DNA from: Alloprevotella sp.
Lineage (GTDB): Bacteria; Bacteroidota; Bacteroidia; Bacteroidales; Bacteroidaceae
Assembly (NCBI GenBank): GCA_045636405.1
Contig: JAZTXL010000003.1
Coordinates: 3,021-67,020, forward strand
DNA: 64,000 bases
Direction of reading: 5' to 3'
A program made the translations under genes and the position numbers. This document shows, in pieces, positions 3,676 through 64,000 of this stretch; position 1 is the stretch's first letter; each line of letters opens with the position of its first letter. The notes beneath the pieces are model-generated. The model was not told where the DNA came from. It did no database searches and saw nothing but the letters and a program-made list of their open reading frames with translations.

Positions 3676-4587
3676 ATGAAACCTACTCTTTTTCTCCTCG
3701 CAGCCGGTATGGGAAGCCGCTATGGCGGTTTGAAGCAGCTCGATAGCCTTGGCCCTAATGGCGAAACCATCATGGACTATTCTATCTATGACGCTATCAA
3801 CGCAGGCTTTGGCAAGCTCGTATTTGTTATCCGTAAAGATTTCGAAGAAGATTTCCGCCGCATCGTGCTCTCTAAGTACGAAGGTCATATCCCTTGCGAA
3901 TTGGTGTTCCAGGCTTTGGACGCACTGCCCGAAGGCTTTACCTGTCCTGCCGACCGTGTGAAACCCTGGGGTACTAACCACGCTGTGATGATGGGTAAAG
4001 ATGCCATCAAGGAGCCATTTGCAGTGCTCAACTGCGATGACTTCTACGATCGCGACGCCTTCAAGGTGATGGGTAAGTTCTTGAGCGAGCTTCCCGAAGG
4101 TAGCACCGGAAAATATGCCATGGTGGGATTCCGTGTTGGCAACACCCTCTCTGAAAGCGGTACTGTGAGCCGTGGTGTTTGCGAAACCAACGAGCAAAAC
4201 CTCCTTACCAGCGTAGTAGAGCGCACCAAGATTCAGCGCTTCGACGGTGTAGTGAAATACCTCGACGAGAACGAAGAATGGGTTGCCATCCCCGATAGCA
4301 CTCCCGTTTCTATGAACTTCTGGGGCTTCACCCCCGACTATTTCGAACACAGCGTTGAGTACTTCAAGACTTTCCTTTCTGATCCTAAGAACATGGAGAA
4401 CTTGAAGAGCGAGTTCTTTATCCCCCTCATGGTAGATAAGCTCATCAACGACGGCACAGCTACTTGCGAAGTGCTCGACACTACTTCTAAGTGGTTCGGT
4501 GTTACTTATCCCGAAGACCGCCCCGAAGTGGTAGAGAAATTCAAGAAGCTCGGCGAAGAGGGCGTTTATCCCGAAAAGATGTTCTAA
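3676..4587 (+). CDS. Sugar-phosphate nucleotidyltransferase (NTP_transferase family)
   Basis: 303 aa; LLAAGMGSRYGGLKQ, KPWGTNHA, NCDDFY, WFGVTYPED motifs. Confidence 0.88.
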   Translation: MKPTLFLLAAGMGSRYGGLKQLDSLGPNGETIMDYSIYDAINAGFGKLVFVIRKDFEEDFRRIVLSKYEGHIPCELVFQALDALPEGFTCPADRVKPWGTNHAVMMGKDAIKEPFAVLNCDDFYDRDAFKVMGKFLSELPEGSTGKYAMVGFRVGNTLSESGTVSRGVCETNEQNLLTSVVERTKIQRFDGVVKYLDENEEWVAIPDSTPVSMNFWGFTPDYFEHSVEYFKTFLSDPKNMENLKSEFFIPLMVDKLINDGTATCEVLDTTSKWFGVTYPEDRPEVVEKFKKLGEEGVYPEKMF

Positions 4588-4613
4588 GTCCACTTAGACT
4601 CCGAGAATAAAAC

Positions 4614-4655
4614 AGGGAGGTGTCTGTACATGTACGGACACCTCCCTCTCTTTTT
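4614..4655 (+). terminator. Intrinsic terminator
   Basis: AGGGAGGTGTC/GACACCTCCCT 11-bp stem followed by CTCTTTTT, 27 nt after the stop codon. Confidence 0.75.
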
Positions 4656-4805
4656 GTGTGTGGAGATGATGGGGGATGAAAGCCCCGGCCAATCTCCCTT
4701 AATAGAGAGAGGCTTTGAGCGCTGAGGTAAGTTTGGGGAGTAAAGCATCCCGGTGGTAGAGAAAGTGGAAAACCTCACGGCCCACACCTAGCTGACCACT
4801 GCCCA

Positions 4806-4891
4806 TTTCGAAAGTCTGATCTAGGAAAAACTAGGTCTTAAGAAATTTTTCCTAGGTCTTGCGGAATTTTTCGCAGATCAGACTTTCGAAA
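4806..4891. repeat. 86-bp intergenic element with perfect 17-bp terminal inverted repeats (CTAGGAAAAA family)
   Basis: TTTCGAAAGTCTGATCT (4806-4822) / AGATCAGACTTTCGAAA (4875-4891); reverse complement matches 62773-62858 at 83/86 and also matches 43932-44002. Confidence 0.92.
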
Positions 4892-4934
4892 ACGGGGTCC
4901 GCAGGGCGGCGTTCGCAGGCGTTTATGAAATTTT

Positions 4935-5017
4935 GTAACGAGCCATGTTACAATGTGTAACTTCCCATGTTACGAAGTGTAACATGCCATGTTACAAGTT
5001 GTAACACGCCGTGTTAC
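4935..5017. repeat. Tandem array of 4 palindromic 22-bp units GTAAC-N7-GTTAC-N5
   Basis: GTAAC at 4935, 4957, 4979, 5001, each followed 7 nt later by GTTAC. Confidence 0.95.
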
Positions 5018-5040
5018 TTTTATAAGCAAAGGGAAAGGAG

Positions 5041-5075
5041 AAGCCCCCTCCTAAACTCCCCCTAAAAGGGGAGGA
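5041..5075. repeat. REP-like C-rich hairpin AAGCCCCCTCCTAAACTCCCCCTAAAAGGGGAGGA (degenerate second copy at 4680-4714)
   Basis: CTCCCC/GGGGAG stem preceded by a CCCCCTCC arm; 4680-4714 has the same AAGCCCC...TCTCCC...GAGAGAGG layout. Confidence 0.45.
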
Positions 5076-5100
5076 ATTTTTTTCACCCTACATTACCCTC

Positions 5101-5168
5101 GTTTCTTTGTAGCTTTCTAGGAAAAAACAGTAAGCTACAAATTCTCTCCTAGCGAGCTACGAAGTAAC
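5101..5168. repeat. CTAGGAAAAA-family element (68 bp)
   Basis: Imperfect terminal IR GTTTCTTTGTAGCT / AGCTACGAAGTAAC; internal CTAGGAAAAA at 5117; reverse complement resembles 43993-44040. Confidence 0.7.
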
Positions 5169-5232
5169 GGCTCAAGATGACCGTAGATTTTCAGAAGGTT
5201 ACGAAGCCCAAGAGAGGTCCACTTTTCGCGGC

Positions 5233-7422
5233 TCAATGCTTACCGCCCTTTTCTCCCCCTTCGTATTGCATGGAGAAGGGCAAGCCGCGTTGCATCATGT
5301 CGGCTAGCAGAGGCTGCAGACGCTTGCAGAACGATGCCCACGAGCGCTTGGAGGGTTGGCTCCAACCCACTTCGGCCAGGGCGATGGCGCGGGGATAGGC
5401 CTGATAGAAGAGGCGCTCGGGCGAGGTGATACATTCGCTCCACAGCGTGCCGGCCACTCCGTAGAGATGGCTCTCTTCAAATTTCTTTTCTCTGCCCCAT
5501 GACGGCTCAAGGCTGTAGGTTTGCTTCAGCGAGGTGGTGGGCATTCCCCAGTTCACCTCGGGCATATCGCCGCGGGCCATGGGGTAGTCCAGATAACAAT
5601 GTTCGCCCGGGCAGAGCATGATGTGTGCGCCGTTGGCCATGGCGGCGTCGATGGCAGCATTGGTCAGTCCGTGGCGCCAAGCAAAGGTGATGCAGCCTTC
5701 GGGTATGTTTTTGAAGTCGGTCTCGTACCAGAACATCGGCGTCTTGCCGTGGCAAGTGCGCAGCGTGTCAATGGCACGCTGGAACATATATTCCTGCAAG
5801 CGCCAGTTCTCGCTGCGGTCGGTGGTGGTGATGCCGAGGCGCTGCTTGAGGGCTTGGCATTTCTTACAATGCGTCCAGCAGTCGAGCGCAGGGTTTCCGG
5901 CCTCGTCGCCGCCCAAGTGAATGTAGCGACTGGGGAACACATCGGCCAACTCGCGGAACACATTTCCCAAAAACTCATATACAAATTCTTCGCCAGGGCA
6001 CAACAATTCGTTGGACACACCACACGTCAGGCGGATGGGCACTTGGCGGCCGCCGCAGGTGAGTTGCGGATAGCAGTGGATGGCTGCCACCTCATGGCCG
6101 GGCATCTCTATTTCGGGGATAATCTCTACGTGGTAGCGCGCGGCGAAGTCCACCAGTTCGCGCATCTCGGCCTGTGTGTAGAAACCCGAGGTGGGCAGCA
6201 GCATGTCGTCCATACCCACACGCGAAGCACCCAGCTCCGTCAGCAGAGGGTAGGATTTTATCTCGATGCGCCAGGCTTGGTCGTCCACCAAGTGCAGGTG
6301 GAGCGCATTGAATTTGTAGCGCGCCATCTCCACGACAAAGTCCTTCAGAGTTTGTAGCGGGATGAAGATGCGGGCAGGGTCTACCATCAACTCACGCATA
6401 CGGGTGCGTGGTGCATCGGCAATCTCGACGGCGGGAAGGCCGGCGCAGCACTTTCCTTCATCAGCAATGAGCATCTGCTCCAGTGTCATCAGTCCCCAAA
6501 ATACGGCTTGCGGCGTGCAGCCTTGTAGCGTGATGCCCGAGGCCGACACATTTAATATATAGGCCTCTTCGTTCTCCAAAGAGGGGTTGAGGCTGAGGCG
6601 TATAGTTCCTTTGCCGCGTCCGGACTTGAAGGTGGTGCGCTCAGAGAGGATGCGCTTCAAGTGGGTGTGCTCGTTTTCCAAACCGTCCTCTACGACGATG
6701 CGGCCTACGTTTTTCCAGAGCAGCGGCTCACGACCGGTGTAGCGCAAAGATTGGGGTGCCGGTGTGAGATAGAGCGAGTCGGGCACCAGGGCGGTGCTTT
6801 CTTTTTGGAAGAAGTGGCGCCAGCCCTCGGCGGTGCGATAGGCTTTGCGGGCACCTTTGGGCAGAACGAGTTGGCAACGCTTGGAGTCGATGCCGGAAAA
6901 GGTGTTGGCTTGGGCCGTGGGAGGAACGGGCGAGTTGACCACTATCTGCCGCAGCCCGCTGCAATGGGCAAAGGCGTAAGCGCCCAGTTCGGGGCTGCCA
7001 TCAATGTGCAGCTCGCTCAAGCGCTTGCAACCGGAGAATGACGCAGTACCTACGGTGCGTAGCGAAGCGGGCAGGCGGAGCGTTTGCAGGGAGTCGCAAG
7101 CAAAGAAAGCCTGCGAGCCAATTTCTTCCACACCTTGTGGTAAGAGCAAAGTCTGCAGGCGGTGGTGGGAGTAGAGCGCATTCTTAGGAATGACAGGGCA
7201 GTTGGCGCGGCTAAGGTCGAGGTGGTTCAGCCTAAAGCAGAGGTCGCGCAGCTGGCGGAAGTCGGAATTGCCGGAGAGGGTAGGTGTGCCGGTGAGTACA
7301 ATGCTTTTTGCTGCAGCCTTTTGCTCAGGTTGTAGTTGCGAGATGGAGTTCACCTGCTGGGCCTTTGCTGTGAAGAAGGAGCCGATGAGGGCGAGGCTGA
7401 TAATAAGTACGTGTTGCTTCAT
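5233..7422 (-). CDS. BspA-type leucine-rich-repeat / GH20 beta-N-acetylhexosaminidase fusion
   Basis: 729 aa; signal peptide; LRR_5 repeats (IGSQAFFACDSLQTLRLPASLRTVGTASFSGC); GH20 motifs HLHLVDDQAWRIEI, PEIEMPGH, catalytic HLGGDEAG, GTLWSE. Confidence 0.9.
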   Translation of the reverse strand: MKQHVLIISLALIGSFFTAKAQQVNSISQLQPEQKAAAKSIVLTGTPTLSGNSDFRQLRDLCFRLNHLDLSRANCPVIPKNALYSHHRLQTLLLPQGVEEIGSQAFFACDSLQTLRLPASLRTVGTASFSGCKRLSELHIDGSPELGAYAFAHCSGLRQIVVNSPVPPTAQANTFSGIDSKRCQLVLPKGARKAYRTAEGWRHFFQKESTALVPDSLYLTPAPQSLRYTGREPLLWKNVGRIVVEDGLENEHTHLKRILSERTTFKSGRGKGTIRLSLNPSLENEEAYILNVSASGITLQGCTPQAVFWGLMTLEQMLIADEGKCCAGLPAVEIADAPRTRMRELMVDPARIFIPLQTLKDFVVEMARYKFNALHLHLVDDQAWRIEIKSYPLLTELGASRVGMDDMLLPTSGFYTQAEMRELVDFAARYHVEIIPEIEMPGHEVAAIHCYPQLTCGGRQVPIRLTCGVSNELLCPGEEFVYEFLGNVFRELADVFPSRYIHLGGDEAGNPALDCWTHCKKCQALKQRLGITTTDRSENWRLQEYMFQRAIDTLRTCHGKTPMFWYETDFKNIPEGCITFAWRHGLTNAAIDAAMANGAHIMLCPGEHCYLDYPMARGDMPEVNWGMPTTSLKQTYSLEPSWGREKKFEESHLYGVAGTLWSECITSPERLFYQAYPRAIALAEVGWSQPSKRSWASFCKRLQPLLADMMQRGLPFSMQYEGGEKGGKH

Positions 7423-37240: not shown

Positions 37241-37356
37241 TGTCGCTCTGCGCCGCTCGCTGCTTTCTGGCTCTTGTGAGAACTCTTCTTGCGCCGCCTC
37301 CTTTCAGAGCAGCCTAAACTGCCAACTTTTTTCAGTACACCTCAGTTTGGCTTTTT

Positions 37357-37483
37357 GTAACAAGCCATGTTATACGATATAACGAGCCATGTTACATGTT
37401 GTAACGAGCCGCGTTACATGTTGTAACAAGCCATGTTACATGTTGTAACGAGCCATGTTACATGTTGTAACAAGCCGCGTTAC
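37357..37483. repeat. Tandem array of 6 palindromic 22-bp units GTAAC-N7-GTTAC-N5 (largest, most homogeneous)
   Basis: Unit starts at 37357, 37379 (ATAAC), 37401, 37423, 37445, 37467; consensus GTAAC RAGCCRY GTTAC ATGTT. Confidence 0.96.
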
Positions 37484-37563: not shown

Positions 37564-38646
37564 ATGTTTACAGTAAGTAGAAGAGACCTGGGCGAACTTT
37601 TGGCTTTGTTTCGCCTGGTAGAGGATATGTCCGTGCCCGAGGCTATGGCCGACGGCAAAGCCGCCGAGCAATGTGTGGAGTTTGAGGCCGTGATGCGCGA
37701 GGAAGAGAAGGTGATGAAATGCTATCGCCGCGAGGGCAACGAGGTGCTCATTGAGAGCAGCGACAGCGACGAGACAGTGCGCCTGGACATTGAGGAATGG
37801 CGCTCTGCAGCCAACGGATTTTTCGAGGCGCTGCGCCAGAACGACGACGAGAATCTGGTGCTCGTGGACGACGCCGAGGAGGCTTTTCTGGACAAAGCCA
37901 AAATCTATAGCATAGCCGGAACGGGCGAGGGGCAAAACCATTTGCTGCTGGCCACAGCTGCCGGCTTGCAGCCCGTGGGCGTATGGTTGCGAGTGGGGGC
38001 TTTCCCCACCAAGGTGCTCGATGGCGGAAGATTGGCCAATCTTAAGTTGGAGCAGACCGGTGCGCGCTTTGCCACCCCCATGGCTGCCAAGGTGAACGCC
38101 CTGACCTCTGCGGCCACCGTGCGCGACAGAATGTGGCTCATCGAAGAGATGGGCAGTTCGCTGCGCTATAGCAATGTGGCCGACAAGGTGTTCCGCGCCA
38201 ACTGCGCCATGATAGACCTCCACCTCGGCAGGTTGCTCACAGAGATGGTGCGCCTCTCCTATATGGAAGATGTGGTCCGCCTGGACGAACTCGTGCAGCG
38301 CATGAACGAGATGAACCCGCTCAAGGTGAAGAGCGAGCTGATAGAGAAACACGGATTCTATGAGTACAAGCTCAAGCAGCTGCTCATGGCCTGTGCTGCG
38401 GGTATGCGCCCGGCCAAAATCTATACCGGCGTGGAAGACTTGCCCGCCTATCGCCTGATTGTGAATCCCGACGGCCGCCTTGTGGTCTTCCCCGGCGGAG
38501 AGCGTGCTCGCCTGGCCGACTTCCTTTTCCACCACACACGCCTGGAGCGCGGCAGCATGGAGAAGGATAAGTATGGCGAACTGGAGCGCGAGAACAATGT
38601 CTACTACTTTAAGTTGAATCTGAAAATAGGTCTTACCAAACGATAA
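37564..38646 (+). CDS. Orphan HpaII-family restriction-endonuclease-like protein (catalytic motif degenerate)
   Basis: 360 aa; recalled HpaII-family motifs LLALFRLV, VLDGGRLANLK, VFRANCAMIDLH, FYEYKLKQLL...GMRPAKIYTG, terminal YYFKLNLKI; no methyltransferase adjacent. Confidence 0.75.
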   Translation: MFTVSRRDLGELLALFRLVEDMSVPEAMADGKAAEQCVEFEAVMREEEKVMKCYRREGNEVLIESSDSDETVRLDIEEWRSAANGFFEALRQNDDENLVLVDDAEEAFLDKAKIYSIAGTGEGQNHLLLATAAGLQPVGVWLRVGAFPTKVLDGGRLANLKLEQTGARFATPMAAKVNALTSAATVRDRMWLIEEMGSSLRYSNVADKVFRANCAMIDLHLGRLLTEMVRLSYMEDVVRLDELVQRMNEMNPLKVKSELIEKHGFYEYKLKQLLMACAAGMRPAKIYTGVEDLPAYRLIVNPDGRLVVFPGGERARLADFLFHHTRLERGSMEKDKYGELERENNVYYFKLNLKIGLTKR

Positions 38647-43879: not shown

Positions 43880-44040
43880 AGCCATTTTTTGCCTTTGTAA
43901 TTGTCTGAAAATCAGTAGGCATTTTTGGGCGTTTCGAAAGTCTGATCTACGAAAAATTCCGCAAGACCTAGGAAAAATTTCTTAAGACCTAGTTTTTCCT
44001 AGAAAGCTACTAGTTTTTCCTAGTAGCTTACTAAGAAATG
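43880..44040. repeat. Composite CTAGGAAAAA-family element; 43892-44002 is identical to 62733-62843
   Basis: Left module CCTTTGTAATTGTCTGAAAATCAGTAGGC, core TTTCGAAAGTCTGATCT..., tail GTAGCTTACTAAGAAATG; 111/111 identity by manual alignment. Confidence 0.93.
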
Positions 44041-46487: not shown

Positions 46488-46587
46488 GCCATTTTTGCCT
46501 TTTGTAATCCCTTGAAAATCAATGGCTATTTTGGGGCGTTTCTTAGGTAAAAGCTAGGTGAATTTCGGTAACTACTAAGAAAATGGC
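46488..46587. repeat. Degenerate member of the intergenic element family (left module plus TTTCTTAG/CTAAGAAA core)
   Basis: GCCATTTTTGCCTTTTGTAATCCCTTGAAAATCAATGGC aligns with 43880-43931; short IR at 46539-46546 / 46575-46582. Confidence 0.7.
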
Positions 46588-46686
46588 CGTGATGTAGGGC
46601 AAAAAAGTTAATAATTATTGACTTTTTATTTTTTATAGAAAAAGAATAATTAAATTGCGCCATCTAACCTTTATAAATTAAAAGAT

Positions 46687-47880
46687 ATGGAAAAAAGAGT
46701 ATTTTTTATTATGTTTTTAATGTTTTTATCATTAGGAGTCTTTGCTCAATTATCTGTAAATTCTTCGGGTAAAGTTTCAATTTCTAATAATGGTTATAGA
46801 GTATTAGATATTAGTGGTAAAAACCAAAATATTTATGCTGTTCGTACAGGGAATGCTTCTTCTAGTGCGATAGCTACTATTACTGGTATTTGTGATAAAG
46901 ATGGAATACCTACAAGTATTGGTGTTGAAGGAACATCTGTGTCTTCTTCCTCAACCCAATACTATGATAATCTTAATCGATCCTATGGTGTTATGGGTAC
47001 AGCCGGTCATGGTGGCAATGGTTGGAATTTTGGTGTCTTTGGAAGACTGCAAAATTCCTATGGCGCAGGAATTTATGGATCAGCAATAACCAATGATTGG
47101 GGGAGAAATATTTCCGACCCTTATGCTGGCTATTTTAACGGGAATGTACAAGTGTTGGGAAATGTGCAAGCTACAGGTTCAGTAAGTGGTATTTTACTTG
47201 GTGCGAGTGTATCTCCTACATCTTCAGTTTCTATTTTGGCTGATGATATTAAATCTGAGTCCGTTTCTGATAAGATGGCAAATCTTTCTGTTGTTTCTTA
47301 TTACAAAGAACAGCCTATGGTTTTGACAGAAAACCTAAAAGAAAGTGAGGAAGTTGTTCCTAATTGGATTTCAGAAATAGAACTACAGAGTCTTTCTAAA
47401 AAACATTACGCACTTTCTGCAGAAGAATTAGAAGATGTTTTTCCGGAATTAGTATATACGAATGCAGATAAAAGTAAAAGTATCAACTATGTAGAGATGA
47501 TTCCTTTGTTGTTACAGTCAATAAATGAACTACGTAGTGAAGTTGCTAAATTGAAAGAGGAAAACAATAAGTATTCCAATAAAAAAATGGCTACAGATAT
47601 AAAAGATTGTATCGAAAGTCCTATAGAATTATCTCAAAATAAACCGAATCCTTGGAATGAAAGTACTGAAATTACGCTATCAGTTCCTGAAAGTTTCAAA
47701 AACGCTATAGTTCTGTTCTTTGATTTGAAAGGAAAACAGGTTTTTGAACAAAAGCTATATACTAGTGGAGAACAGAGTTTGAAATTCTATGCAAAAGATT
47801 TTACACCAGGAATATACATATATTCTTTAGTCGTTGATGGAAATCTTGTAGCATCGAAAAAGATGCTAGTACTAAAGTAA
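46687..47880 (+). CDS. Secreted protein with Peptidase_S74-like intramolecular chaperone domain and T9SS C-terminal sorting domain
   Basis: 397 aa; signal peptide; Gly-rich beta repeats (YGVMG, FGVFG, GIYG, YAGYFNGNV); S74-like HYALSAEELEDVFPELV...SINYVEMIPLLLQSINEL; CTD LSQNKPNPWN...PGIYIYSLVVDG...KKMLVLK. Confidence 0.8.
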   Translation: MEKRVFFIMFLMFLSLGVFAQLSVNSSGKVSISNNGYRVLDISGKNQNIYAVRTGNASSSAIATITGICDKDGIPTSIGVEGTSVSSSSTQYYDNLNRSYGVMGTAGHGGNGWNFGVFGRLQNSYGAGIYGSAITNDWGRNISDPYAGYFNGNVQVLGNVQATGSVSGILLGASVSPTSSVSILADDIKSESVSDKMANLSVVSYYKEQPMVLTENLKESEEVVPNWISEIELQSLSKKHYALSAEELEDVFPELVYTNADKSKSINYVEMIPLLLQSINELRSEVAKLKEENNKYSNKKMATDIKDCIESPIELSQNKPNPWNESTEITLSVPESFKNAIVLFFDLKGKQVFEQKLYTSGEQSLKFYAKDFTPGIYIYSLVVDGNLVASKKMLVLK

Positions 47881-47950
47881 TAATTTTTATTGTTGATTAA
47901 ATGATGTTCGAGATACTTAATGATATTGTTTAATTTAAGTATTAGGTTTT

Positions 47951-48526
47951 ATGAAACGTTTTTTATTTATATATATATTCTTATGTATAATACCAAACAT
48001 TATATATTCAAAGAATCTTGTATTTACTCCAGAATTTTCAAAAAAAATTTTTGAAAATGATACTATTTTCTTTGAGAAAAATTCTGTTCCTATAAATGGG
48101 CTATCAATAACGGCAGATATTTTTCAAAAAACAGACAGAAGTTTAATCAGACTTGTTTTAGAAGATATATATGGTAAAGAATATCTTGTTGGGGAATGTA
48201 CAAAGTTCTTGAATGAAAAAGATACAATTTTTTGGAAAGATTATTGTGAAGAAAGTTATAGATTAGAAAATGTAGTTCCAAAGTTCTTAAAGATAATTCT
48301 TGTAGATGCGAGTATATATATAAACAAAATAAATTTTTTAGAGATTACTAACAATACTTTATCTAAGGATTTTGTGGCTAGACAAGATTCTATAAGGAAT
48401 CTTCAAGTAAAAGAAAAAATTAAGTCAATAAATAACTATAATAAAAAACATGGAATTTTGTGGACGGCAGGTATCTCTGATATTGCCCTAAAATCTTATG
48501 CAGAAAAAAAGAATTATTTAATATAG
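47951..48526 (+). CDS. N-terminal (signal/pro-region) fragment of a C1 cysteine protease
   Basis: 191 aa; signal peptide, DYCEES, WTAGISDIALKSYAEKK; reading continues in the -1 frame into the next ORF. Confidence 0.6.
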   Translation: MKRFLFIYIFLCIIPNIIYSKNLVFTPEFSKKIFENDTIFFEKNSVPINGLSITADIFQKTDRSLIRLVLEDIYGKEYLVGECTKFLNEKDTIFWKDYCEESYRLENVVPKFLKIILVDASIYINKINFLEITNNTLSKDFVARQDSIRNLQVKEKIKSINNYNKKHGILWTAGISDIALKSYAEKKNYLI

Positions 48527-48636
48527 AAAGTGATAACTTTGACCTAGGGGGATTTGAATATTATAAATATGGTATTTTTAGTATTCCAACAAACCACCAG
48601 AATGTAAAAAGGAACTCAGAATCTTCTAGAATTTCT

Positions 48637-49839
48637 ATGTATGTAAAAAGTTATGATTGGCGGAATAGGCATGGAAAAAATTGGATAACTGTTCCTAAAG
48701 TACAAGTTGGTAGAACTTGCTGGGCTTTTGCTATTGCTACTTTGACAGAGAGTTATATTAATTTATTTTATAATAAACAATTAAATTATGATTTATCTGA
48801 GCAAGATCTAATAATTAATGGAGGAGTGAATTTCATACCTAGTGTAGGTGGATTTGTAACAGATGCTCTAAATTATATAAAACAAGAAGGAGTTGTTAAA
48901 GAAGAATGTTATCCATTTAGTTTTCCTAATGATTTGTTTGAAAAATGTTCTACGCCTGATGAGATTATTAAGATAGAAGATTATGAAATAAACCCGAATG
49001 TGGCTGAAGCTGAATTAAAAGAACTTCTTTTTAAATATCCTCTTTGTGTTAATCTTTTTTGGCCTGGAAATATTGGACATAGTGTACAACTTGTTGGCTA
49101 TAATCAATTAATGCTAGGAGATAGTATAATGTTAGAATCTTATGATGATACTAATCCTGAATGGACTTATATTGATGAAGATAGTGAATATTTAGGAAAA
49201 ACTTGTTGGATTATTAAGAATTCTTATGGAGAAAATTGGGGCATTGATGGATACGCTTATATCATTACTGATAATTTATTAAGATTACCGACTTCCTATT
49301 CTATTAAAGGAAGAGTTAGTAGCTTGCTTTATGGAAATAATGATGTCCTTTGTACAGATGCTGATGGTGATGGCTTTTATTTTTGGGGAGTAGGAGAAAG
49401 ACCTTTACATTGTCCTTCATGGGCTCCTGATTTTGCTGATGGTGATGATTCTAATTATGAAGTAGGTCCTATGAATGAGTATGGATATTGTATTACTATT
49501 AATCCCAATGGAAACGACAGCTTATTTTCGCCAATCTATGTTTGTGAGGATACTACTTGGACTTCATATAAATATTATCACCAAAATATAATAGTTGAAA
49601 ATTCTGCATGCTTGAATATACAATCAAATACAGATTTTTATAAAGGTACTACAATTTATTTGGCAAGTGGTTCTGTCTTGGTTATAGATGGGGCTATTCT
49701 TAACAATGTAAGAATAGAAGCTGCAAGTGGTAGTAAAATTATTATTAAGAATAATGGTGTGGTAAATTATTGTCCTACTAGTAATTTTATATTACCAATA
49801 GGGGCTGAATTAGATTTGATTCAAGGTTTAATTCATTAA
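48637..49839 (+). CDS. Catalytic fragment of a C1 (papain-like) cysteine protease
   Basis: 400 aa; YDWRNRHG, QVGRTCWAFA (Gln/Cys), DLSEQDL, GHSVQLVGY (His), WIIKNSYGENWGIDGY (Asn). Confidence 0.88.
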   Translation: MYVKSYDWRNRHGKNWITVPKVQVGRTCWAFAIATLTESYINLFYNKQLNYDLSEQDLIINGGVNFIPSVGGFVTDALNYIKQEGVVKEECYPFSFPNDLFEKCSTPDEIIKIEDYEINPNVAEAELKELLFKYPLCVNLFWPGNIGHSVQLVGYNQLMLGDSIMLESYDDTNPEWTYIDEDSEYLGKTCWIIKNSYGENWGIDGYAYIITDNLLRLPTSYSIKGRVSSLLYGNNDVLCTDADGDGFYFWGVGERPLHCPSWAPDFADGDDSNYEVGPMNEYGYCITINPNGNDSLFSPIYVCEDTTWTSYKYYHQNIIVENSACLNIQSNTDFYKGTTIYLASGSVLVIDGAILNNVRIEAASGSKIIIKNNGVVNYCPTSNFILPIGAELDLIQGLIH

Positions 49840-62900: not shown

Positions 62901-62937
62901 AAAAATCCCTCGGTCGCAACCGTTGTGCAACCGAGGG
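62901..62937 (-). terminator. Intrinsic terminator of rfbB
   Basis: CCCTCGGTTGC...GCGACCGAGGG stem with ATTTTT on the minus strand. Confidence 0.7.
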
Positions 62938-62974
62938 GTATGTTGTGTGTAAAGCGCCTTCGCTCCGAGGAGGC

Positions 62975-64000
62975 TTATCGCTTGCCGTACATCATTTCGT
63001 AGTAGAGCTGGTAGTCCTCACCGCTCACGGCTTCCACCCAGTCGCGGTTTTCAAGGTTCCAGCGGATGGTCTTCACGATGCCCTCTTCAAAGCAAGTCTC
63101 GGGATACCATCCGAGGTCGGCCTTGATTTTAGAAGGATCGATACCGTAGCGCAAATCGTGACCCAGGCGGTCGGCCACAAAGGTGATGAGGCTGTCGTTG
63201 ATCCACTCGATGTCTACCTCGCCGTTGGCGTCTTTCTCCTGGCGTTTGAGCATAGCTCTCCAAGCGGGGTTCTCCTTCATCAAGTCGTGGATGGTGCGGA
63301 TGATCACCTTTACAATCTGTATGTTCTGGCGCTCGTTGTGTCCGCCTACGTTGTAGATGCAGCCGTCGGCGCCTTGGCGGATGACCATATCAATGGCCTT
63401 GCAGTGGTCTTCCACGTAGAGCCAGTCGCGTACGTTGGTGCCTTGTCCGTAGACAGGTAAGCGCTTGCCTTCCAAAATGTTGTTGATGATCAGAGGAATG
63501 AGCTTTTCGGGGAACTGATAGGGACCGTAGTTGTTAGAGCAGCGTGTGATGGACACAGGCATCTTGAATGTGTCGCGATAGGCGCAGACGATGTGGTCGG
63601 CGCTGGTTTTGGATGCGCTGTAAGGGCTGTGGGGGCAGAGGGGAGTCTCCTCGGTGAAGAAACCATCCTCGCCCAGGCTGCCGTAAACTTCGTCGGTCGA
63701 CACTTGGTGGAAGCGCACTCCCTTGCGCCATGTGGGGTAGCCTTGCTCGTCGCGGCCGGTCACCCAGGCAGCGCGTGCAGAGTCCAAGAGGTTTTGCGTG
63801 CCCAAAATGTTGGTCTGCAAGAAGAGCTGTGGGTTTTCGATGCTGCGGTCCACGTGGCTCTCGGCTGCGAAGTTCACCACTACGTCAAATTTGTATTCGC
63901 CAAAGAGGCGGTCGGTCAGACTTCTGTCGCAGATATCACCGCGCACAAAGAAGCAACGCTCGTTGTCAATATCCTTGGCAATGGTGCCGAAATAGCCGGC
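62975..64000 (-). CDS. rfbB: dTDP-glucose 4,6-dehydratase (5'-truncated by window edge)
   Basis: Open frame to base 64000; VVNFAAESHVDRSI, QVSTDEVYG, YSASK, RCSNNYGPYQFPEKLIP, RDWLYVEDH, DRLGHDLRY. Confidence 0.97.
   Translation of the reverse strand, partial: AGYFGTIAKDIDNERCFFVRGDICDRSLTDRLFGEYKFDVVVNFAAESHVDRSIENPQLFLQTNILGTQNLLDSARAAWVTGRDEQGYPTWRKGVRFHQVSTDEVYGSLGEDGFFTEETPLCPHSPYSASKTSADHIVCAYRDTFKMPVSITRCSNNYGPYQFPEKLIPLIINNILEGKRLPVYGQGTNVRDWLYVEDHCKAIDMVIRQGADGCIYNVGGHNERQNIQIVKVIIRTIHDLMKENPAWRAMLKRQEKDANGEVDIEWINDSLITFVADRLGHDLRYGIDPSKIKADLGWYPETCFEEGIVKTIRWNLENRDWVEAVSGEDYQLYYEMMYGKR

What the first reader, a model, noticed from the sequence alone, without database searches (positions are those of the whole stretch)
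4588..5232. Mosaic 'repeat garden' between convergent genes
This 645-bp gap stacks a terminator, two C-rich REP-like hairpins (4680-4714, 5041-5075), the 86-bp inverted-repeat element, a 4-unit GTAAC array and a second CTAG-family element. The same modules recur in different order and orientation at 19330, 25340-25710, 43880, 46490, 54350-54715 and 62730 (seen in sequence). Modular reshuffling of short palindromic units in intergenic space is what enterobacterial BIMEs do (established), but these sequences are unrelated to enterobacterial REP consensus. Inference: an independent Prevotellaceae BIME-like system with an unknown trans-acting binder or mobiliser.
Basis: partly seen in the sequence, partly recalled or inferred. 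Interest (0 to 1): 0.62.

Follow-up and report, generated by a model that had tools for sequence, protein, structure and literature searches.

The report
Brick-built mosaic intergenic repeat family
The gap holds one ~450-bp composite copy of a repeat family confined to this species and its sister, built from 21-22-bp palindromic "bricks" behind a promoter-like leader; it is a new example of the known BIME/BrickBuilt kind of bacterial intergenic repeat, with no mobilising enzyme identified.

Summary
The 86-bp inverted repeat, the 4-unit GTAAC array, the second C-rich hairpin and the CTAG element all belong to genome-wide families. There are ~225 repeat islands, 94% of repeated bases are non-coding, and convergent gaps are twice as often occupied as divergent ones. 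Three corrections apply.

- The first "REP-like" hairpin (4680-4714) is unique sequence.
- Positions 4806-5208 are one colinear composite found in the same order at 18 loci, not a free shuffle.
- Its right end is a reverse-strand copy of a ~48-nt leader ("L") that heads about 100 units in this genome.

Units change by whole bricks. Strains differ by 21/22-bp steps, and the sister species keeps L at orthologous gaps but carries other bricks. No target-site duplication was found. The only Y1 (RAYT-type) transposase gene is not flanked by these modules. No matching IS, TnpB or IS110 gene was found. The family was found only in this species and one sister among 147 other genus species searched. 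The L core motif, however, also heads other multi-copy hairpin repeats in scattered Bacteroidota.

Verdict: a new variant of BIME/BrickBuilt-like mosaic repeats that evolves mainly by slippage and ectopic recombination. How whole units disperse and what they do are unresolved.

The parts
4606..4655 (+). Intrinsic terminator of the upstream gene (stem 4614-4647 plus T-run). It is unique sequence, not a member of the repeat family.
   Evidence: It has no other genomic copy. The sister species has a terminator at the same place with a different stem.
4672..4722 (.). It is unique sequence and not a repeat.
   Evidence: No BLAST or nhmmer copy elsewhere. Fold z-score -1.7.
4753..4805 (+). Module K: a semi-conserved flank often found on the leader-distal side of A (...CCCnTAGCTnAnGGCCAT).
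   Evidence: 4-20 BLAST copies. The motif recurs in the flanks of A copies.
4806..4891 (-). Module A: an 86-bp inverted-repeat element made of 21-nt CTAG bricks joined by TTTTTCCTAG / CTAGGAAAAA. It is reversed here relative to the usual L-to-A order.
   Evidence: 131 loci. Median pairwise identity 93%. Fold z-scores -6.1 and -7.6 on the two strands. The leader-distal arm varies without compensating changes.
4892..4930 (.). Module B: the linker that joins A to the GTAAC array.
   Evidence: 24 nhmmer hits, always between A and C or D.
4931..5018 (.). Module C: four 22-bp units of GTAAC-N7-GTTAC, a palindromic minisatellite.
   Evidence: Copy number varies among strains at another locus. Fold z-score about -6.
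5019..5101 (.). Module D: a C-rich hairpin (5044-5073) with a T7 tail, terminator-like on both strands.
   Evidence: About 36 copies. Terminator scan. The fold itself is not exceptional, z -0.9.
5102..5161 (-). Module E: a CTAG-brick hairpin (TTTCTTTGTAGCTTTCTAGG...). It is the hairpin body of an L-headed unit that reads leftwards.
   Evidence: Fold of 5098-5210 on the minus strand, z -3.6.
5162..5208 (-). Module L: the leader, here a diverged copy (GCTTCGTAACCTTCTGAAAATCTACGGTCATCTTGAGCCG). It has two TTTG boxes about 25 nt apart around the palindrome TGAAAATCA.
   Evidence: nhmmer L hit ending at 5208; the 'F tail' model overlaps reverse-complement L hits genome-wide. Consensus from 106 copies.
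5209..5235 (.). Fading tail of the composite. It runs into the stop codon of the GH20 gene (5233-5235).
   Evidence: The copy at C30:10593-11020 aligns as far as 5232.

Best explanation
Positions 4753-5208 hold one composite member of a non-autonomous mosaic repeat family. The family was found only in this species and its sister.

The basic unit is a ~48-nt leader L. L looks like a Bacteroidota promoter: two TTTG boxes about 25 nt apart, separated by the palindrome TGAnAATCA. L is followed by a long hairpin built from 21-nt 'bricks' joined by the 10-nt junction TTTTTCCTAG. In this gap an L-plus-brick unit lies on the minus strand (5208 down to 5102). It is fused to a terminator-like hairpin (D), a 4 x 22-bp GTAAC-N7-GTTAC array (C), a linker (B) and the abundant 86-bp brick hairpin (A).

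Shown:
- The family is multi-copy, intergenic and enriched in convergent gaps.
- Whole bricks or units are gained and lost between strains.
- The composite exists as dispersed colinear copies.
- Orthologous gaps in the sister species keep L but carry different bricks.

Inferred:
- Change happens mainly by slipped-strand mispairing within arrays.
- Bricks are exchanged between dispersed copies by ectopic recombination or gene conversion, with breakpoints at the conserved brick junctions. This would homogenise A to 93% identity while the adjacent L stays at 67%.
- New gaps are colonised occasionally by copying whole units, through an unidentified route, preferentially just beyond terminators where insertions are tolerated.
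- Any function (outward promoter, terminator or insulator, protein-binding array) is secondary and untested.
For: - Copy number and location: 225 islands in the 1.43 Mb of high-GC contigs, with 94% of bases repeated >=5x non-coding.
- Gap type: convergent 61/100, divergent 30/97, tandem 94/449.
- Colinear composites: A-B-C(-D-E-L) at 18 loci, 79-92% identical, with a sharp edge at 4806.
- Brick-step polymorphism among strains: the GTAAC array at 58984 has 1, 3 or 4 units; a 21-bp brick indel lies at ~54430; G129 has two extra bricks at 46540.
- Brick replacement at orthologous gaps with L retained.
- The orthologous gap of 4588-5232 in sister G129 (326 bp) holds a different L-plus-brick unit in the opposite orientation and none of A, B, C or D.
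- The 111-bp identity between 43892-44002 and 62733-62843 ends exactly at a TTTTTCCTAG junction. Strain L037 carries the other distal bricks there, followed by rearranged DNA.
- A copies are 93% identical; the adjacent L is 67%.
- No target-site duplication: the longest shared flank word averages 5.07 nt against 5.04 in the control.
- Repeat islands diverge less between strains (2.9%) than unique intergenic DNA (5.8%).
- No cognate transposase was found.
Against: - No clean filled-versus-empty site was recovered for any A, L or composite copy, so dispersal to new loci is inferred from copy distribution only.
- The genome is a 43-contig draft, and the comparison strains are metagenome assemblies. 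These can drop IS copies and collapse repeats, which could also lower apparent divergence in repeats.
- The high conservation of A (95-99% identity to copies in the sister species) could reflect selection for a function rather than conversion.
- Gene calls used for the location statistics come from my own simple codon model.
Confidence: 0.6

Rival explanations
1. The units are small RNA genes or mobile promoter cassettes. L would be a sigma-A-type promoter that fires into the hairpin (an ~90-nt RNA in L-A units, ~350 nt in this composite). The sequence would be kept by selection, with the copies acting in regulation.
For: - L has two TTTG boxes at the spacing of the published Bacteroides -33 TTTG / -7 TAnnTTTG promoter (consensus cited in PMC7366714; L consensus).
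- The hairpin always starts about 5-8 nt after the second box.
- The L-proximal arm of A is invariant while the distal arm varies.
- Repeats diverge less than unique intergenic DNA.
- The exact L core heads other multi-copy hairpin repeats in other Bacteroidota, and in some single-copy hits an ATG follows 20-70 nt downstream.
- BrickBuilt leaders show promoter activity (PMC4596501).
Against: - The second box lacks the TA of TAnnTTTG.
- L orientation is unbiased relative to neighbouring genes: 27 against 22 in tandem gaps.
- No Rfam family matched.
- No compensating changes occur in the arms of A.
Confidence: 0.2
2. The units are classical MITEs or REP-type elements moved in trans by a transposase. 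Candidates are an IS5-like DDE enzyme, as proposed for BrickBuilt, or a RAYT/IS200-type Y1 enzyme, as for REP/BIME. On this view the enzyme gene is simply missing from, or unrecognised in, the draft assembly.
For: - About 130 copies of A at 93% identity, and dispersed colinear composites, suggest recent copying.
- The arms of A (CAGACTTTCGAA) resemble the IS5-type end GAGACCTTTGCA listed for BrickBuilt and ISPg1 in 8 of 12 positions (PMC4596501, my own comparison).
- The L motif has a patchy, multi-copy distribution across Bacteroidota, as mobile DNA does.
- One Y1_Tnp gene exists in the genome.
Against: - No target-site duplication signal.
- The IS5-like similarity lies inside-out, with the outer bases of the published end sitting on the inner side of A's arms.
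- The Y1 gene is flanked by different, unique hairpins, not by these modules.
- Only a DDE_Tnp_1 fragment, and no TnpB or IS110 gene, was found.
- The long repeats in the genome are repeat-protein genes, not IS copies.
- The differences seen between strains are brick-level, not whole-element.
Confidence: 0.15
3. The arrays are binding platforms for a host DNA-binding protein, such as a nucleoid or regulatory factor. GTAAC-N7-GTTAC dimer sites every 22 bp would sit on one face of the helix, and copy number would tune the expression of neighbouring genes.
For: - The half-site spacing (N7 only) and the 22-bp phasing are strict.
- Arrays occur in promoter-side gaps, for example upstream of the UbiA-family gene at 59062, and vary in unit number among strains.
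- The L palindrome TGAnAATCA is conserved across lineages.
Against: - No candidate binder was found. The HpaII-like gene next to the largest array has homologues in 29 of 148 genus genomes, while arrays occur in 2.
- Most arrays are the same 4-unit module copied as a block (38 of 64), as expected for a dispersed repeat rather than tuned operators.
- Arrays lie in convergent gaps as well.
Confidence: 0.05

Closest known systems
BrickBuilt MITE-like element of Porphyromonas gingivalis (Klein et al. 2015, PMC4596501)
   Same: - Bacteroidales host and strictly intergenic location.
- A tandem ~22-23-nt minisatellite embedded between leader and tail segments.
- Full, partial and leader-only or tail-only forms.
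- Whole repeat units gained or lost between strains.
- A promoter-bearing leader.
- A narrow host range (the species plus one sister species).
   Different: - No sequence relation was tested or seen.
- BrickBuilt has 19 copies; here there are ~225 islands.
- BrickBuilt units are direct repeats; here the units are palindromic (GTAAC-N7-GTTAC) or alternate in orientation (CTAG bricks).
- BrickBuilt has IS5-type terminal inverted repeats matching resident ISPg elements. Here no matching IS and no target-site duplication were found.
Enterobacterial BIMEs (mosaics of REP palindromes with linker motifs, mobilised by RAYT)
   Same: - A mosaic of short palindromic units with a small set of linker modules.
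- Intergenic location with a preference for the 3' ends of genes and convergent gaps.
- Hundreds of copies per genome.
- One module type sits between palindromes, as the BIME linker motifs do.
   Different: - No similarity to any described element or RNA family was found, though the enterobacterial REP consensus itself was not compared.
- Units are longer (21-22-nt bricks, an 86-bp hairpin).
- The only Y1/RAYT-type gene is not flanked by the units.
- A directional promoter-like leader heads the units.
[quoted passage not shown] 2016, PMC4755523)
   Same: - A repeat restricted to a few related species of Prevotella-type bacteria.
- 177-184 intergenic copies.
- No terminal inverted repeats and no coding capacity.
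- Most loci conserved between strains.
- Function unknown.
   Different: - The PINSR sequence is given only in a figure, so it could not be compared.
- PINSR is described as a single 188-bp unit, not a mosaic of bricks and arrays.
Correia elements of Neisseria and 'putative mobile promoters' (Matus-Garcia et al. 2012, cited in PMC4596501)
   Same: Abundant short intergenic inverted-repeat elements that can carry outward promoters and terminator-like hairpins.
   Different: - Correia elements have defined terminal inverted repeats and a TA duplication; neither is seen here.
- Promoter activity of L is untested.

Membership tests
REP/BIME mobilised by RAYT | A single-copy Y1 (IS200-like) transposase gene flanked by the same palindromic units | tested here: not met
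   There is one PF01797 gene, at C13:39741-40130. Its flanks carry different hairpins that are unique in the genome (depth 0), and no A, L or C hits lie nearby.
REP/BIME mobilised by RAYT | Short (20-40 nt) imperfect palindromes in hundreds of intergenic copies, combined with a few linker motifs | tested here: met
   221 GTAAC-N7-GTTAC units, about 250 TTTTTCCTAG junctions, and a constrained module grammar; 94% of repeated bases are non-coding.
MITE (IS-derived, e.g. BrickBuilt / IS5-type) | Terminal inverted repeats matching a resident autonomous IS | tested here: not met
   No multi-copy IS appears in the self-BLAST. Only an IS3-like copy and a DDE_Tnp_1 fragment were found, neither with A- or L-like ends. 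Caveat: this is a draft assembly.
MITE (IS-derived, e.g. BrickBuilt / IS5-type) | Target-site duplications flanking copies | tested here: not met
   For 67 A+L units the longest direct word shared by the two flanks averages 5.07 nt, against 5.04 nt for mismatched flanks. The outer boundary of L is fuzzy, so very short duplications cannot be excluded.
MITE (IS-derived, e.g. BrickBuilt / IS5-type) | Presence/absence polymorphism of whole elements at otherwise conserved sites | tested here: inconclusive
   The composite is absent from the orthologous gap of sister G129, but that gap holds another family member. Among the strain contigs only brick-level differences were seen.
BrickBuilt-like architecture (leader + minisatellite + tail) | An internal tandem ~22-23-nt repeat whose unit number varies between strains, flanked by non-repetitive conserved segments, always intergenic | tested here: met
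   This is a match of architecture only. Sequence homology to BrickBuilt was not testable, because its sequence is not in the paper's text.
Known RNA families (Rfam, including FopS/GibS) | A match at or above a family's gathering score | tested here: not met
   There were no gathering-level hits in the 64-kb window. Only sub-threshold generic hairpin (miRNA) matches appear in 4560-5260.
Bacteroidota sigma-A promoter (-33 TTTG / -7 TAnnTTTG) | Both boxes at 19-21 nt spacing, with a transcription start about 7 nt downstream | tested here: inconclusive
   The L consensus has TTTG, then 21 nt, then nCATTTTG. The TTTG parts fit but the TA is absent (consensus as cited in PMC7366714). Transcription starts could not be tested.

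The most novel reading that the evidence does not exclude
'L + hairpin' units may be a widespread but unrecognised class of Bacteroidota elements. A conserved ~32-nt leader core (TTTGTAA-N5-TGAnAATCA-N6-ATTTT) would be read by a conserved host or element-encoded factor, either RNA polymerase as a promoter or a nicking/recombination protein. That factor would drive the transcription or copying of lineage-specific brick hairpins.

This would explain why the same leader heads unrelated multi-copy hairpin arrays in this species and its sister, and in these other lineages:
- Prevotellaceae SUG1766
- Bacteroides sp. CAG:709 and CAG:770
- a 'Bacteroidetes bin_28' lineage
- Tidjanibacter
- Alistipes
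- Massilibacteroides
Probability: 0.25. Interest if true: 0.7.

Novelty: new variant of a known kind. Interest (0 to 1): 0.45.

Why it matters
**Scale.** About 2.4% of the main part of this small rumen-type genome, and roughly 12% of its non-coding DNA, is made of these units.

**Practical consequences.**
- The repeats break metagenome assemblies. Many sister-species contigs end inside them.
- They create strain-level length polymorphisms that could serve as typing markers.
- They sit at a rearrangement point in at least one strain.

**Open question.** If the leader proves to be an active promoter or a recognition site shared across Bacteroidota, these units would be a tractable model for two things. 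One is how promoter-bearing repeats spread and rewire transcription in gut Bacteroidales. The other is how palindromic minisatellites are homogenised without a transposase.

**What changes now.** As it stands, the finding adds a well-characterised new family to a known class. It does not reveal a new mechanism.

Tried and rejected
1. **RAYT link.** The single Y1_Tnp gene is not flanked by the modules.
2. **IS-derived MITE.** No matching IS, only a DDE fragment, no TnpB and no IS110 gene. No target-site duplication.
3. **HpaII-like protein (37564-38646) as a dedicated binder of GTAAC arrays.** It sits beside the largest array. Homologues occur in 29 of 148 genus genomes, while arrays occur in 2. 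Rejected as a specific partner.
4. **Known RNA family.** None matched, including the Rfam-deposited FopS family.
5. **Plasmid or phage origin.** No blastn match in either collection, and only 5 L-motif hits in 2.9 million viral contigs.
6. **L as the promoter of the adjacent gene.** There is no orientation bias.
7. **Chimeric assembly as the cause of the uneven repeat distribution.** Contig GC content ranges from 0.37 to 0.53, and repeats concentrate in the high-GC contigs. Marker-based contamination is only 1.6%. Left unresolved.
9. **Exact-protein look-ups for two window genes.** They found nothing, probably because of start-codon choice.
10. **A concatenated-flank query to find many empty sites in the sister genome.** It was prepared but could not be submitted.

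Full report
**1. What is at the coordinates**

The 645-bp gap lies between convergent genes. Upstream is 3676-4587(+), a weak MobA-like NTP-transferase match. Downstream is 5233-7422(-), an LRR-GH20 hexosaminidase. Reading left to right, the gap contains:

| Coordinates | Content |
|---|---|
| 4614-4647 + T-run | Strong terminator |
| 4753-4805 | K, a weakly repeated flank |
| 4806-4891 | A, the 86-bp inverted repeat |
| 4892-4930 | B, a linker |
| 4931-5018 | C, four 22-bp GTAAC-N7-GTTAC units |
| 5019-5101 | D, a C-rich terminator-like hairpin with T7 |
| 5102-5161 | E, a CTAG-brick hairpin |
| 5162-5208 | A diverged reverse-strand copy of the leader L |

The first 'C-rich hairpin' has no other genomic copy, and its fold is unremarkable (z -1.7). 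I recognised the leader L at 43886, 46490, 54350 and 62733.

**2. The modules are far beyond chance, but this gap is one colinear composite**

- BLAST of the gap against the 2.40-Mb, 43-contig assembly gives more than 200 hits each for A and C and 30-50 for B, D, E and L.
- GTAAC-N7-GTTAC occurs 221 times, against 0-2 for other spacings. The 64 arrays have exact 22-bp phasing, and 38 of them have exactly four units.
- The tract from 4806 to about 5208 recurs in the same order and orientation elsewhere: C30:10593-11020, C17:31515-31918, C3:81305-81702, C35:57575-57948, C5:25106-25443 and others. These copies are 79-92% identical. The edge at 4806 is sharp, and the far end varies in a nested way.
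- Strings of module hits show a constrained grammar:
  - A followed by reverse-complement L: about 67 loci
  - A-B-C(-D(-E-L)): 18 loci
  - C alone: about 35 loci
  - A alone: 16 loci
  - L with other bricks: about 37 loci

**3. Genome-wide behaviour**

The figures below use my own codon-model gene calls and a self-BLAST.

- In the contigs with GC >= 0.465 (1.43 Mb), 34.8 kb is repeated at least 5 times, and 94% of it is non-coding.
- There are 225 islands.
- Occupied gaps: 61 of 100 convergent, 30 of 97 divergent and 94 of 449 tandem. Convergent against divergent gives an odds ratio of 3.5, p=3e-5. The effect holds for gaps whose non-repeat remainder is at least 100 bp.
- Repeats are nearly absent from the low-GC contigs, although marker contamination is only 1.6%.

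**4. Anatomy of the units**

- The CTAG family consists of 21-nt bricks. Each is a variable ~11-nt core between A5/T5 runs, and bricks are joined by TTTTTCCTAG or its complement.
- A is a hairpin of such bricks, with fold z-scores of -6 to -7.6 on both strands.
- In about 100 loci a brick hairpin is preceded by L. The consensus from 106 copies is aaa.ggc..tttttt.gccTTTGTAA.t..cTGAaAATCAgtAG.CATTTTgGggCG, and the hairpin follows directly.
- L has two TTTG boxes at the spacing of the published Bacteroides -33/-7 promoter, but it lacks the TA of TAnnTTTG (consensus as cited in PMC7366714).
- L orientation shows no bias relative to neighbouring genes.
- The L-proximal arm of A is invariant. The distal arm varies at three positions in 17-40% of copies with no compensating change, so pairing as such is not being conserved.
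- In this gap the L-E unit reads leftwards on the minus strand and is fused to D-C-B-A.

**5. How the units change**

*Strain contigs.* Other metagenome assemblies and two NCBI assemblies carry the same genes. They are ruminant-gut samples according to their record names.

- The composite in this gap has the same length in two other strains. SNPs are concentrated in the unique flanks rather than in the repeat.
- The GTAAC array upstream of the UbiA-family gene has 1, 3 or 4 units in different strains.
- A 21-bp brick is present or absent at ~54430.
- In strain L037 the distal bricks of the element at 62.8 kb are replaced, and the downstream DNA is different.

*Sister species G129.* Its flanking genes are 93-97% identical to those here, and it was the only other genus member with GTAAC arrays.

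- Its orthologous gaps keep L but carry other bricks.
- Its version of the present gap is 326 bp. It has its own terminator and a forward-strand L-plus-brick unit, and none of A to D.

*Other evidence.*

- The 111-bp perfect identity between 43892-44002 and 62733-62843 ends exactly at a brick junction.
- A copies are 93% identical to each other, while the L next to them is 67% identical.
- Across about 40 kb compared among strains, per-site differences are 7.6% in coding DNA, 5.8% in unique intergenic DNA and 2.9% in repeat islands.

Together these results show brick-step slippage and brick replacement. They also suggest homogenisation among dispersed copies. Selection on A, or collapse of repeats during assembly, could contribute to the same pattern.

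**6. Search for a mobiliser or binder**

- The genome has one Y1_Tnp gene. It lies in an AT-rich stretch next to an IS3-like copy and is flanked by its own unique hairpins.
- Only a fragment of a DDE_Tnp_1 gene was found, and no TnpB or IS110 gene.
- The long repeats in the genome are repeat-protein genes.
- Flanks of 67 A+L units share no more direct sequence than mismatched flanks do.
It has homologues in 29 of 148 genus genomes, while arrays occur in 2.
- There were no plasmid, phage or Rfam matches.

**7. Distribution**

- L+A was found in none of 24 genus and 16 other-family genomes searched.
- The A-core pattern occurred in G000 only, among 401 family genomes from 35 genera, apart from one chance-like hit.
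- GTAAC double units occurred in G000 (151 matches) and G129 (17) only, among 148 genus genomes.
- The exact L core (20 specified bases) behaves differently. It hits more than 112 stretches in the species-genome collection, and nearly all of these are in Bacteroidota.
- The L core is multi-copy in a few scattered lineages, where it again precedes hairpin or brick arrays with lineage-specific sequences: Prevotellaceae SUG1766, Bacteroides sp. CAG:709 and CAG:770, 'Bacteroidetes bin_28', Tidjanibacter, Alistipes and Massilibacteroides.
- In an order-level sample of 250 genomes, only G000, one bin_28-like genome and two single hits matched, and the control pattern gave zero.
- Within the genus, allowing one mismatch, G000 has 65 matches, G129 has 111, and twelve relatives have 1-3 each.
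- One relative's locus shows a terminator hairpin, a T-run, an L-like motif and different 22-nt bricks.

The leader-plus-bricks architecture is therefore older and wider than this family. The specific bricks (A, C) are confined to two sister species.

**8. Comparison with known systems and verdict**

- The architecture matches BrickBuilt of P. gingivalis most closely: a leader, a ~23-nt minisatellite and a tail; intergenic location; whole units gained or lost between strains; promoter activity; and a host range of the species plus one sister (PMC4596501).
- It also matches BIMEs in its mosaic logic and its preference for the 3' ends of genes. PINSR is a comparable repeat restricted to a few related Prevotella species (PMC4755523).
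- It fails the defining tests for RAYT-REP (no flanked Y1 gene).
- It also fails the tests for IS-derived MITEs (no matching IS ends, no duplications). The draft assembly is a caveat for both failures.

I file it as a new variant of the known class of mosaic intergenic repeats. Brick-level evolution is shown, recombination is the inferred cause, and both the route of dispersal and the function are unresolved. The leader motif shared across Bacteroidota is the most interesting open thread.

Noticed in passing
window 37352-37483 and 37564-38646: The largest GTAAC array (6-7 units) lies 81 nt upstream of a full-length HpaII-family restriction-endonuclease homologue (PF09561, E=2.5e-79). Homologues occur in 29 of 148 genus genomes, so the pairing with arrays is not specific.
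   Followed up: partly
window 46584-49835: A ~3.2-kb low-GC stretch lies next to the L+brick unit at 46490-46583. The sister species G129 has only 134 bp here. Both versions begin with similar ATGGAAAAA... gene starts, so this looks like gene gain or loss in an AT-rich island.
   Followed up: partly
window 12951-13410 (minus strand): A further palindromic minisatellite family (TGTCAAG..CTTGAAATTTTTG, ~22-24-bp units) differs by one or two units among strains. Two strains lack a ~260-bp segment of this gap.
   Followed up: partly
whole genome (contigs C1-C43): Contig GC content ranges from 0.37 to 0.53. The repeat family is concentrated in the contigs with GC around 0.5 and is almost absent from the low-GC contigs (C9, C12, C26, C36, C38). 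Marker-based contamination is only 1.6%.
   Followed up: no
G000 contig C13:39560-41586 (outside the window): The only IS200-like Y1 transposase gene is preceded by three different short GC hairpins (for example TAGCCCTTGCGGGCTA) and followed by an IS3-like element, all within AT-rich DNA at a contig end.
   Followed up: partly
window 62840-62975 compared with strain locus L037 (GCA_045630165.1): In this strain the distal bricks of the L-A unit are of the type seen at 43970-44040, and the DNA beyond them is a different, AT-rich region with a DUF7477 gene. This marks a rearrangement breakpoint at the repeat.
   Followed up: partly
window 5209-5235: Similarity to another composite copy (C30) runs up to the stop codon of the GH20 gene. 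The last codons or the stop of that gene may therefore derive from the repeat.
   Followed up: no
loci L062 and L073 (Chitinophagaceae genomes): A single-copy exact L-core motif, with further conserved upstream sequence (..CCAAGAA..TTATTTTTA..), lies ~35-145 nt upstream of the rplM-rpsI ribosomal protein genes. It points away from them.
   Followed up: partly
window 4614-4647 compared with G129:C212: The terminator of the upstream gene sits at the same position in the sister species, but the stem sequence is entirely different. The structure is conserved while the sequence has been replaced.
   Followed up: no
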